In this document: in pieces, positions 1 through 3,000 of the stretch | Layout: every line of letters begins with the position of its first letter | Position numbering within the stretch: the stretch's first letter is position 1 | Origin: Escherichia coli O127:H6 str. E2348/69 | Lineage (GTDB): Bacteria; Pseudomonadota; Gammaproteobacteria; Enterobacterales; Enterobacteriaceae | Strand: one strand, 5' to 3' | DNA length: 64,000 bases | NCBI RefSeq assembly: GCF_000026545.1 | Contig: NC_011601.1 | Program-made: the position numbers

Positions 1-3000
1 GGTGAGTTCGCCCAGTTATACAGCCGTGTGGCGCTGGCGCTTAACCTGGGCGATACGCTGTCGCAGGAAGATTTTAACCAGATAGCCACCGGGCTGATGC
101 CGGAAGCAGTAGAACCGGAAATCAGCGAGGCGCTTTACGAACGCTCGCTGGGTAATGCCCGCCGCCTCTTCAAACTGGCGCGCGGTGTGTACCGGATTTG
201 TGATATCAGCGATGCACCGGTCAGTGTGCAGGCCATTGATAAATTCGCAGAAATGTTAATTCACTGATGGAGAACAAGACGATGGACAAGCAGACCATTA
301 ACGCCGTCCGTTCCCGTGCCCGTGTGGCCATCCACACCACTGGTGGTCGTGTAACGGGACAACATCACCGTTTACCTGTGGTTTATGCCTGCCCGCCCGT
401 GGGTGGTCCTGTATGGCCGGTAACGGAAATCATCCAGACATTCAGCGGCCTGCGCCGCGTGGTGAAAACATCCTGTATCGACGGCTGCACCGTCGTATGG
501 CAATGAGAGGAAATCAGAATGGCGGTCAAGTTAGAAGTAATTATCTACACCGATGAAAATGGCACGCTTCGTGTCAGGAGTATGGGGGCTATTGATAAAA
601 AGGATTTACGGATGAAGAGGTCGGTGTAAGACAACGGTTATGGGAGGTAATGAATCAAACTCTTAATAAAGAATTTAACGGCGTTGATTTATTTTCTGTT
701 GGCGTGGAACCCTGCGCGCATAACACACATTAATCTGTAAATATCACTGAGGTAATTTAATTATGACGACTGAAAATAAAGTTAAGCAATACACGAAAAC
801 TCAAGCGCCTGAAGGTTACTGGGTGGATGCCCGTGGCGTAATGACACCTGAAAGCCTTATCAAAGATATTGACCGCGACCGCGAGCAGCTGGTCGGTGAG
901 CTTGTGGAGATGGTGATTGCTGCCTCCGCCTCACTGCGGGAACTGAAACTGCGTGCGTTTGGTGATATTCAGGCGTTTATTGACCTGTCGGCGGAGAAAT
1001 ACGGCGCTGTGAAAGGCGGTAAAAAAGGGAATATCACGCTTTACAGCTTTGACGGGCGTTACAAGATTCAGCGCGCCATGCAGGACCGTATCGCGTTTGA
1101 TGAACGCATTCAGACCGCGAAGTCGCTGATTGATGATTGCCTGGCTGACTGGACGGAAGATGCACGCCCTGAAATTAAGGCCATCATCAGTGAGGCATTC
1201 AGCACGGACAAGGAAGGCAACATCAACACCGGTCGCGTTCTGGCCCTGCGTCGCCTCGAGATTGAGGACGAACGCTGGAATAACGCCATGTCGCTGATTG
1301 GTGAAGCCGTCCAGGTAATTGGCAGCAAAAGCTATATCCGCGTGTATGAGCGCGTCGGTGATTCTGCTGAATACCGCGCAATCCCGCTTGATATTGCAGG
1401 GGTTTAACATGCATCAGGATATCAAAGAGTACAGGGCTGGGAACCGTTGCGCAGCGTATTCGCTGGGCGCGTCCAGAGCAGAACAACGCGGCGATTATGC
1501 CGAAGCTGAAAAACTGTGGCGTAAGGCAGCACAAAGCCCGTGTAGTACCCTGCGCCGCATCTGGGCGGAACACCGGGCAGAGTTCTGTGCCAATGCTCAC
1601 CTGAAAGGATGGAAGCCGCCTCATGAACGCGAAACGCTTTAATCAGCTATATCCGCCAGGGACTCGCTTCATGCACATTGCACATCGGGCAGTGCGTGGT
1701 GGTCGGGTGGTAAAAACTGTTGCACCTGCCAGAGATTTTAAATGTGGTTGTGTGGTTGAAATTAATGTCGAGCCTTATTTCGTTAAAGTCGAAACACTGA
1801 AAGCACCGCATTAATTTAATTTGTTTTTAATTGTTATTTAAAACAGGCGTAAACCCGCAGGGGCTGGCTTACGCCTGAATCTGAGGAAGTTTATTTATGA
1901 ATATTGCTAAGCAAAAAAAATTCGCCCGCGAAATTAATCTGACAATCGTTTGTTTTAATCGTCTTGCGACCAGTTCTCAATCGACAGCAGATGTTCATCC
2001 AGCGCCGCAGCCAGAACGAACTCCCCACGTTCCTGAAGGCCGTGCTGGAAGTTGCGTAATTCAGAATCCAGGGCGCTGAGGTTCAGACAGCCATTTTCTG
2101 AAAGCTGTTTAACCAGAAAGCTCCACGCAGCTTTGTTAGCAGTAATTGCTGCCGCAATTTCATCATCAATCATTTTTTAACTCCTGATTGGGTATGTTGG
2201 GGCAGCGATTATGACAAGTGTTTTGTGGTTATAAGTTGATCAAAAACAATGAGTTACAACCATGAAAGATAAATACATTGCCAAAATCAAAAAACTGTTA
2301 CGCCTTGCCAAAGGAACATCAAGCCCGGAAGAAGCCGCTAACGCTATTGCAAAAGCCCAGGCTTATATGCGCCAGCATGGTATCAGCGAAAACGACGCGG
2401 AATTGTTCGACATTCAGGAAGCTGCCAGCGCGGGTGCGCCGAGTGACGCCAGTACGCCGCCGCGTTATATGCACATCCTGTGTGACCTGGTCTGTAAAGC
2501 CTTCGGTGTCGAGTGTTACATCTCCGGCGAATACCGGGCTTCTGGTTCACTTAAACGTTACGTGCGTTTTTATGGTCCTGACAGCCGCCCGGAAATCGCG
2601 GCTTACGCGTTTGATGTGCTTTCCCGTCAGATGATGGCAGAGCGCAAGAAATATCAGGATAAACACTGCAAACGTTGTGGTCCGTCCACGCGGGTAGCCC
2701 GTGGCGACCAGTTCTGCGAAGGCTGGGTCTTTGGTGCCCGTGATGTCATTGCGGTGTATGACGTCTCCCCGGAAGAAAAAAGCCGCCTTGAGCTTTACAG
2801 AAAGAACCTGCACAGCACTAAGGGACTGCGCGACGGGGATATGCGCACAGCTAAAGCGTGTCGGGGTGCAGAGTTTGCCGCTACTGCCGGTTTTATCGCC
2901 GGGAAGAACGCCAGGCTGCATCAGGGGGTTAATGGTCAGAGCAACAGACCGCTGGCACTGGGGAGGGTGTAACGATGGCTTTTAAACTTCTTAGTGTTAC

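What the first reader, a model, noticed from the sequence alone, without database searches (positions are those of the whole stretch)
1845..2261. Antisense small acidic protein gene embedded in the early operon
A 72-aa ORF on the minus strand (1955..2173) has an AGGAG ribosome-binding site, enteric-preferred codons and a net strongly acidic composition. It converges on the early genes across a hairpin at 1845-1876. Small acidic proteins with their own expression signals in phage early regions are often DNA mimics or other anti-defence or regulatory proteins, but that role is speculative. The overlapping plus-strand ORF 1897..2079 looks like low-complexity noise.
Basis: inference. Interest (0 to 1): 0.5.

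Follow-up and report, generated by a model that had tools for sequence, protein, structure and literature searches.

The report
Backward-facing small gene in Mu-like prophage
The 72-codon reverse-strand reading frame is a real, conserved small protein gene of unknown function that points against the early operon of a Mu-like prophage of E. coli E2348/69; it looks like an accessory gene made in the dormant prophage, not an early anti-defence DNA mimic.

Summary
The minus ORF 1955..2173 has AGGAG seven bases before its ATG, a net charge of -9 and no rare codons, and it ends towards a hairpin at 1844-1877.

The window is a Mu-like prophage of E. coli E2348/69, inserted in eutC. The ORF belongs to an unnamed family of 72-77 aa proteins (16 members, plus a remote 86-aa relative). 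dN/dS is 0.12-0.54, and AlphaFold gives a confident helical bundle (pLDDT 89.8).

In 12 of 12 Mu-type loci from Escherichia, Salmonella, Serratia, Trabulsiella and metagenomes, the gene lies antisense to the early operon and divergent from the DUF2786 gene. Each of the 11 distinct loci has a -10-like hexamer 33-39 nt upstream. Each also has a hairpin that is more stable as RNA in the gene's own direction.

No profile, structure or defence library says what the protein does. The conserved residues are hydrophobic rather than acidic, so the DNA-mimic reading is not supported.

The plus ORF 1897..2079 is not pure noise. Its ribosome site and first ~24 codons are a conserved stub of a displaced phrog_7741-type gene. 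Its tail is a by-product of the antisense gene.

A 169-bp deletion (2095-2263) has killed the gene in 36 complete E. coli genomes, against 7 with an intact copy.

My best reading is a lysogen-expressed accessory gene. Its function is inferred, not shown.

The parts
1955..2173 (-). Coding sequence of the 72-aa acidic helical-bundle protein (WP_000564495.1, UniProt B7UGF1)
   Evidence: ORF listed and annotated. Family of 16 proteins of 72-77 aa. dN/dS 0.12-0.54. AF2 pLDDT 89.8. Twelve near-identical variants all keep 72 aa. GC skew turns negative only across 1801-2200.
2181..2185 (-). Shine-Dalgarno AGGAG, 7 nt before the ATG
   Evidence: Read from the sequence. SD-like GGAG/GAGG/AGGA stands before the ATG in the related loci.
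2208..2216 (-). Putative extended -10 promoter element TGTCATAAT of the minus gene (inferred, no transcript data)
   Evidence: A -10-like hexamer ends 33-39 nt before the ATG in 11 of 11 distinct Mu-type loci, 5 of them with an upstream TG. Shuffled upstream regions show one at rate 0.45 per locus. The strict two-hexamer scan found no promoter.
2236..2243 (.). Palindrome TTGATCAA holding a GATC, in the divergent spacer between the minus gene and DUF2786; role unknown
   Evidence: GATC lies 66-72 nt before the minus ATG in 11 of 11 loci, and is also present in L036. GATC is otherwise scarce in this prophage: 18 in 12.5 kb.
1840..1877 (-). Hairpin plus U-run: the likely strand-specific intrinsic terminator of the minus gene
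   Evidence: Inverted repeat 1844-1858/1863-1877. Conserved in all 11 loci. RNA fold is more stable in the minus direction in 11 of 11 (E2348 -24.0 against -19.6 kcal/mol) because of G-U pairs. UUUU follows the stem only in the minus direction. 93.6% of cells pair, with one compensatory pair.
1897..2079 (+). Operon-direction ORF of 60 codons. Its head (SD GAGGA 1883-1887, ATG 1897, about 24 codons to 1968) is a stub of a displaced phrog_7741-type gene. Its tail (about 1969-2079) is the antisense shadow of the minus gene.
   Evidence: Head: SD+ATG present in 11 of 11 loci. Codon-position diversity 0.47/0.30/0.57. 8 of 8 E. coli substitutions synonymous. Homologous to the N-terminus of the L016 188-aa protein (E 5e-5), whose C-terminus matches phrog_7741. 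Tail: dN/dS mostly above 1, frameshifted variants exist, and its length is as expected from the minus protein.
2095..2263 (.). 169-bp segment missing in most related E. coli prophages. It holds minus codons 1-26, the SD, the -10, the GATC palindrome and the DUF2786 leader. The junction lies in the short repeat CCAT.
   Evidence: Alignments. The junction is found in 36 complete genomes, the intact segment in 7.
2262..2972 (+). Neighbouring DUF2786/DUF7168 gene, divergent from the minus gene in every Mu-type locus
   Evidence: (phrog_421).
1623..1814 (+). Upstream early gene (phrog_5591, 63 aa). Its stop marks the left edge of the cargo slot.
   Evidence: Homologues stand before the hairpin in the related loci.

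Best explanation
This is an autonomous accessory gene (a 'moron'-type unit) that faces backwards inside the early operon of a Mu-like prophage.

Shown: it encodes a conserved, soluble, acidic helical-bundle protein of 72 aa from an unnamed family. In Mu-type phages of several enterobacterial genera it always lies antisense to the operon, just upstream of and divergent from the DUF2786 gene. It sits in a slot whose cargo varies between phages.

Inferred from conserved signals: it is transcribed from its own -10 element (TGTCATAAT, 2208-2216), translated from AGGAG-N7-ATG, and terminated at the hairpin 1844-1877 plus U-run. That hairpin is built to fold best on the minus-strand RNA and has no U-run in the operon direction, so it probably lets early transcripts pass.

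Inferred from orientation: the early promoter cannot express the gene. It is therefore most likely made in the lysogen while the early operon is repressed, and silenced by convergent early transcription after induction. The protein most likely acts by binding another protein, in a role that benefits the lysogen, such as excluding or resisting other phages or steadying the prophage. Its target is unknown.

The gene's 3' end overlaps a leftover 5' stub of a phrog_7741-type operon gene. This suggests that the antisense gene replaced the body of that gene in an ancestor.

The gene is dispensable. A 169-bp deletion removes its promoter and first 26 codons in most E. coli relatives.
For: Source and annotation.

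Protein family and selection: homologues of 72-77 aa at 29-64% identity; dN/dS 0.12-0.54; AF2 pLDDT 89.8, pTM 0.74; 12 near-identical variants all 72 aa, and the exact protein seen on 598 contigs; family members standing alone outside Mu in Serratia odorifera and metagenomes.

Synteny and orientation: 12 of 12 Mu-type loci.

Signals: -10-like hexamer in 11 of 11 loci; hairpin conserved and more stable in the minus direction in 11 of 11.

Variable slot: other cargo, including a remotely homologous 86-aa antisense gene.

Deletion polymorphism.

Precedent: a small lysogen-strand protein that overlaps an early gene in antisense and excludes superinfecting phages, in the transposable Pseudomonas phage Fc02 (PMC9936078).
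Against: There are no transcript or protein data, and no E2348/69 transcript map was found in the library. The strict promoter and terminator scans did not call either signal. The U-run after the hairpin is weak in the Serratia-type loci. No homology or fold match points to any function, so the lysogen-benefit role is inference from orientation and one analogy. Frequent loss of the gene shows that any benefit is conditional.
Confidence: 0.6

Rival explanations
1. One reading: an early anti-defence protein such as a DNA mimic, made on infection or induction to block restriction or another host defence.
For: The protein is small, acidic (net -9, pI 4.28), helical and sits in a phage early region. 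Phage early regions do hold such proteins (general knowledge).
Confidence: 0.1
2. The transcription is the function. Convergent transcription from the minus promoter, together with an RNA complementary to the early mRNA (including the stub ORF's start site), insulates the downstream early genes (DUF2786 to gemA and mor) from leaky early transcription in the lysogen. The protein is secondary.
For: Position and orientation are fixed over deep divergence. The minus transcript would run over the SD and ATG of the plus ORF as far as the hairpin. The -10 and hairpin are conserved.
Against: The protein is under purifying selection. It folds confidently. It also occurs alone in Serratia and in metagenomes, with no operon to insulate. 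The two roles could coexist.
Confidence: 0.15
3. The plus-strand ORF 1897..2079 is the real gene, and the minus ORF is a mirror artefact.
For: Among 15 E. coli loci, 12 of 21 substitutions in 1897..2079 fall on plus codon position 3, and the first 8 are all synonymous. PGAP annotates the plus ORF in some deletion-form prophages. SD and ATG are conserved in 11 of 11 loci.
Against: Only the first ~24 codons are conserved. The tail has dN/dS mostly above 1. Frameshifted variants exist (P0008 and P0009). The tail's length is what synonymous recoding of the minus gene predicts (P 0.5-0.8 in most loci). Plus-ORF homologues occur only in E. coli. The minus family has members with no plus ORF or hairpin. 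The E. coli signal comes mostly from deletion forms, in which the minus gene is already dead.
Confidence: 0.03
4. An evolutionary leftover: a gene that once worked and now drifts in E2348/69 without function.
For: Most relatives have lost it through a 169-bp deletion. It is intact in only 7 of 5426 complete E. coli genomes.
Against: All five intact E. coli copies examined encode the identical protein despite differing flanks. Twelve variants keep the full length, and the first 30 residues are invariant. The signals are intact.
Confidence: 0.1

Closest known systems
Morons: autonomous promoter-gene-terminator units in prophages (concept from lambdoid phage genomics; from my own knowledge)
   Same: A single small gene with its own -10-like element and its own terminator hairpin. 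It is present or absent among otherwise collinear prophages and is oriented so that it can be expressed while the lytic operon is off.
   Different: It lies inside the early operon of a transposable (Mu-type) phage, in antisense. Its position is conserved across genera rather than sporadic. It overlaps a stub of a displaced operon gene. Expression from the repressed prophage is not shown.
Olg1 of Pseudomonas transposable phage Fc02 (PMC9936078)
   Same: A small protein (7.9 kDa) encoded on the lysogen-expressed strand of a Mu-like phage, overlapping an early lytic gene in antisense. It excludes superinfecting phages when expressed from a plasmid.
   Different: Olg1 lies next to the repressor gene and is co-transcribed with it, not in the middle of the early operon. 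No sequence relation was found: tblastn of the 72-aa protein against 50,697 phage records gave nothing. The exclusion phenotype is untested here.
DNA-mimic anti-restriction proteins (Ocr, ArdA)
   Same: Small and acidic.
   Different: No profile or fold match. The acidic residues are not the conserved ones. The orientation is opposite to early transcription.
phrog_7741 proteins (about 181 aa, unknown function), the commonest plus-strand cargo of the same slot
   Same: The window's plus ORF head (MNIAKQKKFAREINLTIVCFNRL) is homologous to the N-terminus of a 188-aa protein in the Salmonella locus L016. That protein's C-terminal 70 aa match phrog_7741 and the E. coli 181-aa protein.
   Different: Only the SD, the ATG and about 24 codons remain. 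The body is replaced by the antisense gene.

Membership tests
Moron-type autonomous prophage accessory gene | Own promoter | tested here: inconclusive
   A -10-like hexamer lies 33-39 nt before the ATG in 11 of 11 loci, with TG in 5. No -35 is visible and the strict scan found none. No transcript data.
Moron-type autonomous prophage accessory gene | Own terminator | tested here: met
   The conserved hairpin is more stable in the gene's direction in 11 of 11 loci, and in E2348 UUUU follows the stem. The simple terminator scan missed it, and the U-run is weak in the Serratia-type loci.
Moron-type autonomous prophage accessory gene | Present or absent between otherwise collinear phages | tested here: met
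   Intact in 7 complete E. coli genomes, deleted in 36, replaced by other cargo in others.
Moron-type autonomous prophage accessory gene | Expressed from the repressed prophage | not testable with these tools
   Inferred from orientation only. No E2348/69 transcript map was found.
DNA-mimic anti-restriction proteins (Ocr/ArdA type) | Sequence or profile similarity to a known family | tested here: not met
   No Pfam hit even at E<=10. No PHROG, PADLOC or NCBIfam hit. No meaningful match by PDB sequence search.
DNA-mimic anti-restriction proteins (Ocr/ArdA type) | Conserved array of surface carboxylates | tested here: not met
   No D or E is among the invariant columns. Family pI is 4.2-5.9.
DNA-mimic anti-restriction proteins (Ocr/ArdA type) | Fold resemblance | tested here: not met
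Toxin-antitoxin or known defence system component | Match to a known component, or a conserved partner gene | tested here: not met
   PADLOC gave no hit. The large upstream proteins in the two non-Mu settings are unrelated to each other. The plus ORF peptide is not hydrophobic like a type I toxin.
Superinfection-exclusion proteins of transposable phages (Fc02 Olg1 type) | Small protein on the lysogen strand, overlapping an early-operon ORF in antisense | tested here: met
   125 nt of overlap with the operon-direction ORF 1897..2079. Description of Olg1 in PMC9936078.
Superinfection-exclusion proteins of transposable phages (Fc02 Olg1 type) | Exclusion of infecting phages | not testable with these tools
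   Needs plaque assays.
Superinfection-exclusion proteins of transposable phages (Fc02 Olg1 type) | Sequence homology | tested here: not met
   tblastn against 50,697 phage records found no match at E<=1. I did not check that Fc02 is in that collection.
Known RNA families (Rfam 15) | Score above the gathering threshold | tested here: not met
   The best hit is Lnt RNA, 26.9 bits against a threshold of 55, at 1808-1877 on the minus strand.
phrog_7741 (for the plus ORF) | Full-length match to the family | tested here: not met
   The plus ORF has no PHROG hit. Only its first ~19-24 residues align to the N-terminus of a phrog_7741-related protein. It is a stub, not a member.

The most novel reading that the evidence does not exclude
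The backward gene, its strand-specific terminator and the divergent spacer with the conserved GATC palindrome form a conserved control module. This module splits the Mu-type early operon. The protein is the founding member of a new family that protects or stabilises the lysogen, for example by excluding other phages or by acting on the neighbouring DUF2786/DUF7168 protein. The hairpin plus ribosome-site linker that precedes each cargo gene would be the recombination joint by which such cargo is swapped between transposable phages.
Probability: 0.15. Interest if true: 0.6.

Novelty: new member of a known kind. Interest (0 to 1): 0.38.

Why it matters
If the protein is made in the lysogen and has a phenotype, it would give a function to an unnamed protein family. 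It would also give a reason why a gene is kept in antisense inside the early operon of Mu-type phages across several enterobacterial genera. The intact and deleted natural alleles in E. coli offer a ready comparison. The locus also warns about annotation: in the deletion forms, pipelines call either a plus-strand 60-aa 'protein' or read-through fragments (P0002, P0003), and these are remnants. As it stands, this is one more uncharacterised prophage accessory gene, of moderate interest.

Tried and rejected
- **Profile searches of the 72-aa protein and its alignment** (Pfam, PHROGs, PADLOC, NCBIfam) found nothing.
- **PDB sequence search** returned only repeat-driven chance hits to designed TIM barrels.
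- **Nucleotide and protein searches of phage and plasmid collections** found no match.
- **IMG/VR scan** gave two loci, both adding nothing new.
- **Scan of species-representative genomes** found none.
- **Rfam** gave only sub-threshold hits.
- **Simple promoter and terminator scan** called neither signal.
- **Hairpin covariation** is weak: the outer stem is nearly invariant and there is one compensatory pair.
- **A toxin-immunity reading** from the non-Mu settings was dropped, because the large upstream proteins are unrelated to each other and not recognisable toxins.
- **A CxxC motif in the plus-ORF tails** was rejected as the mirror image of the conserved A..G[AS] of the minus protein.
- **Selection to keep the plus ORF open** was rejected by synonymous recoding.
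- **A 10-mer shared with the repressor leader** is probably a ribosome-site coincidence.
- **Literature searches** for the accession numbers, DUF2786, and E2348 transcript maps gave nothing usable.
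Full report
**Where this is.** Window 1800-2270 is identical to E. coli O127:H6 E2348/69 (NZ_CP059840.2, 1458815-1459285, reverse strand). The region is the early operon of a Mu-like prophage inserted in eutC. The gene order is repressor, ner-like, Mu transposase, AAA ATPase (MuB-like), DUF3164, an 'ANR' small regulator, a 63-aa gene (phrog_5591), the ORF in question, DUF2786/DUF7168, several small genes, gemA-like, Mor, holins and endolysin. PGAP annotates the minus ORF as WP_000564495.1. It is the only reverse-strand CDS between ner and the lysis genes.

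**The observation.**
- The ORF lies at 1955..2173 on the minus strand and encodes 72 aa.
- AGGAG is at 2181-2185, seven bases before the ATG.
- The protein has 13 D+E against 4 K+R, with pI 4.28.
- It uses no rare codons, and 7 of 11 Leu codons are CTG.
- The inverted repeat has arms 1844-1858 and 1863-1877 and occurs once in the window, with no chance matches.

An ORF of this length is not beyond chance on its own (155 of 2000 shuffles of 1815-2261 reach it). The question therefore had to be settled by comparison with relatives.

**The minus ORF is a real gene.**
- The word-indexed search found only near-identical E. coli proteins and fragments.
- The exhaustive HMMER search then found relatives of the same length at 37-61% identity. 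A profile search raised the family to 16 proteins of 72-77 aa from Escherichia, Salmonella, Serratia fonticola, S. odorifera, Trabulsiella and metagenomes.
- The invariant residues are M1, A8, A9, I10, A12, N13, A16, W17, L20, L24 and A55.
- Pairwise dN/dS is 0.12-0.54.
- With the family alignment, AlphaFold2 gives a compact helical bundle (helices 2-12, 14-26, 32-48, 52-71) at pLDDT 89.8 and pTM 0.74. From the single sequence it gave 71.6.
- Twelve close variants all keep 72 residues, with residues 1-30 invariant. The exact protein is recorded on 598 contigs.
- GC skew is positive over the plus-strand genes and turns negative only over 1801-2200.

**Conserved position and orientation.**
- In every Mu-type locus I could fetch (12 of 12: L016, L017, L018, L019, L021, L024, L025, L026, L031-L034), the gene is antisense to the early operon. 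It lies downstream of DUF3164 or Gam and of the 63-66-aa gene, and is divergent from DUF2786/DUF7168.
- One subgroup (Serratia odorifera, and metagenomes L027 and L028) stands alone among IS elements, with no Mu genes, no hairpin and no plus ORF. The protein is therefore a module in its own right.
- The large proteins upstream of it in those two settings are unrelated to each other.

**Expression signals (inferred).**
- All 11 distinct Mu-type loci have a -10-like hexamer ending 33-39 nt before the ATG: CATAAT, TAGAAT, AATAAT or GATAAT. Five have an upstream TG. In E2348 the element is TGTCATAAT at 2208-2216. Shuffled upstream regions carry such a hexamer in that window at a rate of 0.45.
- No -35 element is evident, and the strict scan called nothing.
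- A GATC, within TTGATCAA in E2348 (2236-2243), lies 66-72 nt before the ATG in 11 of 11 loci. GATC is otherwise scarce in this prophage.
- Downstream, the hairpin is conserved in all loci. As RNA it is more stable in the minus direction in 11 of 11, for example -24.0 against -19.6 kcal/mol in E2348 and -26.5 against -17.0 in L017. The reason is that several pairs are G-U on that strand and A-C mismatches on the other.
- A U-run follows the stem only in the minus direction. This fits a one-way terminator for the backward gene that lets early transcripts through.
- Covariation support is thin: 93.6% of cells pair, there is one compensatory pair, and the outer stem is nearly invariant.

**The plus ORF 1897..2079.**

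Among 15 E. coli loci, however, its first eight substitutions are all synonymous third-position changes, and 12 of 21 fall on codon position 3.

In all 11 distinct loci a good SD and an ATG follow the hairpin in the operon direction. In 8 of them the ATG is exactly 49 nt before the minus stop codon. The first ~24 residues are conserved, as in MNIRSDEFIAREVExTINxFxRL. Synonymous codons differ between loci: Thr is ACA, ACT, ACC or ACG, and Arg is CGC, CGT or AGA. Codon-position diversity is 0.47/0.30/0.57.

Beyond about codon 25 the picture reverses:
- Diversity is flat.
- dN/dS is mostly above 1.
- Variants with frameshifts exist (P0008 and P0009).
- The open length is what synonymous recoding of the minus gene predicts: P is 0.5-0.8 in 8 of 11 loci, though one locus gives 0.003.
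- A recurring CxxC is the mirror of the conserved A..G[AS] of the minus protein.

The head has a source. It aligns with the N-terminus of a full-length 188-aa operon-direction protein in the Salmonella locus L016 (MRKNHSDTAVEREIARTIKSYSRL; E 5e-5). That protein's C-terminal 70 residues match phrog_7741 and the E. coli 181-aa slot gene. The plus ORF is therefore a 5' stub of a displaced gene that now reads into the antisense of the backward gene. The last six or seven codons of the minus gene lie on the antisense of the stub. This is the variable, low-confidence tail of the protein. Whether the stub is still translated for a purpose is open; dN/dS of its head is 0.25-0.8.

**A variable slot and a common deletion.**
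- In most related E. coli prophages, window 2095-2263 (169 bp) is missing. The junction lies in the short repeat ..CCAT / ..CCAT(G), so the DUF2786 ATG follows the stub ORF's stop codon by 13 nt.
- This deletion removes the promoter, the SD and codons 1-26. The remnants then show no constraint in the minus frame: 7 substitutions at codon position 2 against 3 at position 3.
- The junction occurs in 36 of 5426 complete genomes and the intact segment in 7. All intact copies examined encode the identical protein.
- In the deletion forms, annotation pipelines call the plus ORF or read-through fragments (P0002 and P0003).
- The same slot elsewhere holds one or two plus-strand genes, each preceded by the same hairpin-SD linker (L004 and L035).
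- It can also hold a different 86-aa antisense gene (L036, in 2 genomes). This gene is a remote relative of the family (hhalign probability 87.5%, E 3.6e-6) and sits beside a stub of the other phrog_7741 N-terminal type.

**What it does.** No library names a function. The DNA-mimic idea fails its tests: the acidic residues are not the conserved ones, family pI runs from 4.2 to 5.9, and there is no fold match. An early anti-defence role fits poorly with a gene that the early promoter cannot transcribe.

The orientation, the private signals and the presence-absence pattern fit a lysogen-expressed accessory gene. The closest documented parallel is Olg1 of the transposable Pseudomonas phage Fc02. 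Olg1 is a 7.9-kDa protein on the lysogen strand that overlaps an early gene in antisense and excludes superinfecting phages (PMC9936078). It has no detectable sequence relation to this protein.

I therefore commit to this reading. The gene encodes a protein-binding helical bundle made in the lysogen, shut off by convergent early transcription on induction, with a conditional benefit to the lysogen. The gene, its family, its placement, the hairpin's conservation and strand asymmetry, the stub and the deletion are shown. The promoter, the terminator function of the hairpin, the timing and the role are inferred.

**Novelty and score.** This is a new, unnamed protein family, but the kind of thing is known: a prophage accessory gene with its own signals. 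The conserved antisense placement inside a Mu-type early operon and the hairpin-linked cargo slot are the unusual parts. Interest is 0.38.

Noticed in passing
window 1815-1896; L004 1516-1595 and 2142-2221; L035 1216-1296 and 1831-1909: The hairpin, the AT-rich run before it, and the SD and first codons after it (ATGAAAGATAAA..) recur as a linker in front of each successive cargo gene between the 63-aa gene and DUF2786. The DUF2786 gene itself starts ATGAAAGATAAA. This looks like a recombination joint for cassette exchange. From memory it resembles the stem-loop linkers described in T4-type phages; I did not test that.
   Followed up: partly
L036 1319-1579 (minus strand), E. coli AVS0151: A different 86-aa antisense gene (WP_105456248.1) occupies the same slot. 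It is a remote homologue of the 72-aa family and sits beside a stub of the MKDKVW-type phrog_7741 gene. It was found in 2 of 5426 complete genomes.
   Followed up: partly
window 2236-2243 and 2248-2257; L001 about 1112-1121: A GATC palindrome is conserved in the divergent spacer of all loci, although GATC is scarce in the prophage (18 in 12.5 kb). A 10-mer, CAATGAGTTA, is shared between the DUF2786 leader and the leader of the repressor gene; the chance of this is about 0.03. The 10-mer is probably a ribosome-site coincidence. Dam-dependent control is possible but untested.
   Followed up: partly
L034 (Serratia fonticola contig), stub ORF: The operon-direction stub ORF carries a 22-aa tandem duplication of its conserved head (REIMSTHRAYSRLAG / TEIMRTLSAYRRLGAS).
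   Followed up: no
L021 325-1183 (Logan ERR5161021 contig): A Mu-like phage carries genes with T6SS Hcp and Tlde1 domains just beyond the gemA-like gene. This is an unusual cargo for a transposable phage.
   Followed up: no
window 4977-5038: A long imperfect inverted repeat (27-nt arms, 74% complementary) lies in the gap between ORFs 4619..4789 and 5033..5320.
   Followed up: no
window 1808-1877, minus strand: A sub-threshold Rfam match to Lnt RNA (RF01711, 26.9 bits against a gathering score of 55, E 0.14) covers the hairpin and its AT-rich tail. It is most likely chance.
   Followed up: no
E. coli STEC316, NZ_CP041431.1 at about 617 kb and about 2,032 kb: One genome carries two related Mu-like prophages, one with the intact antisense gene and one with the 169-bp deletion form. 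This is a natural pair for comparison.
   Followed up: no
L022 3394-5724 (Serratia odorifera): A 776-aa protein with several weak HTH-like stretches lies upstream of the stand-alone family member, among IS elements. It is unrelated to the large (over 1200 aa) protein in the same position in metagenome loci L027 and L028.
   Followed up: partly
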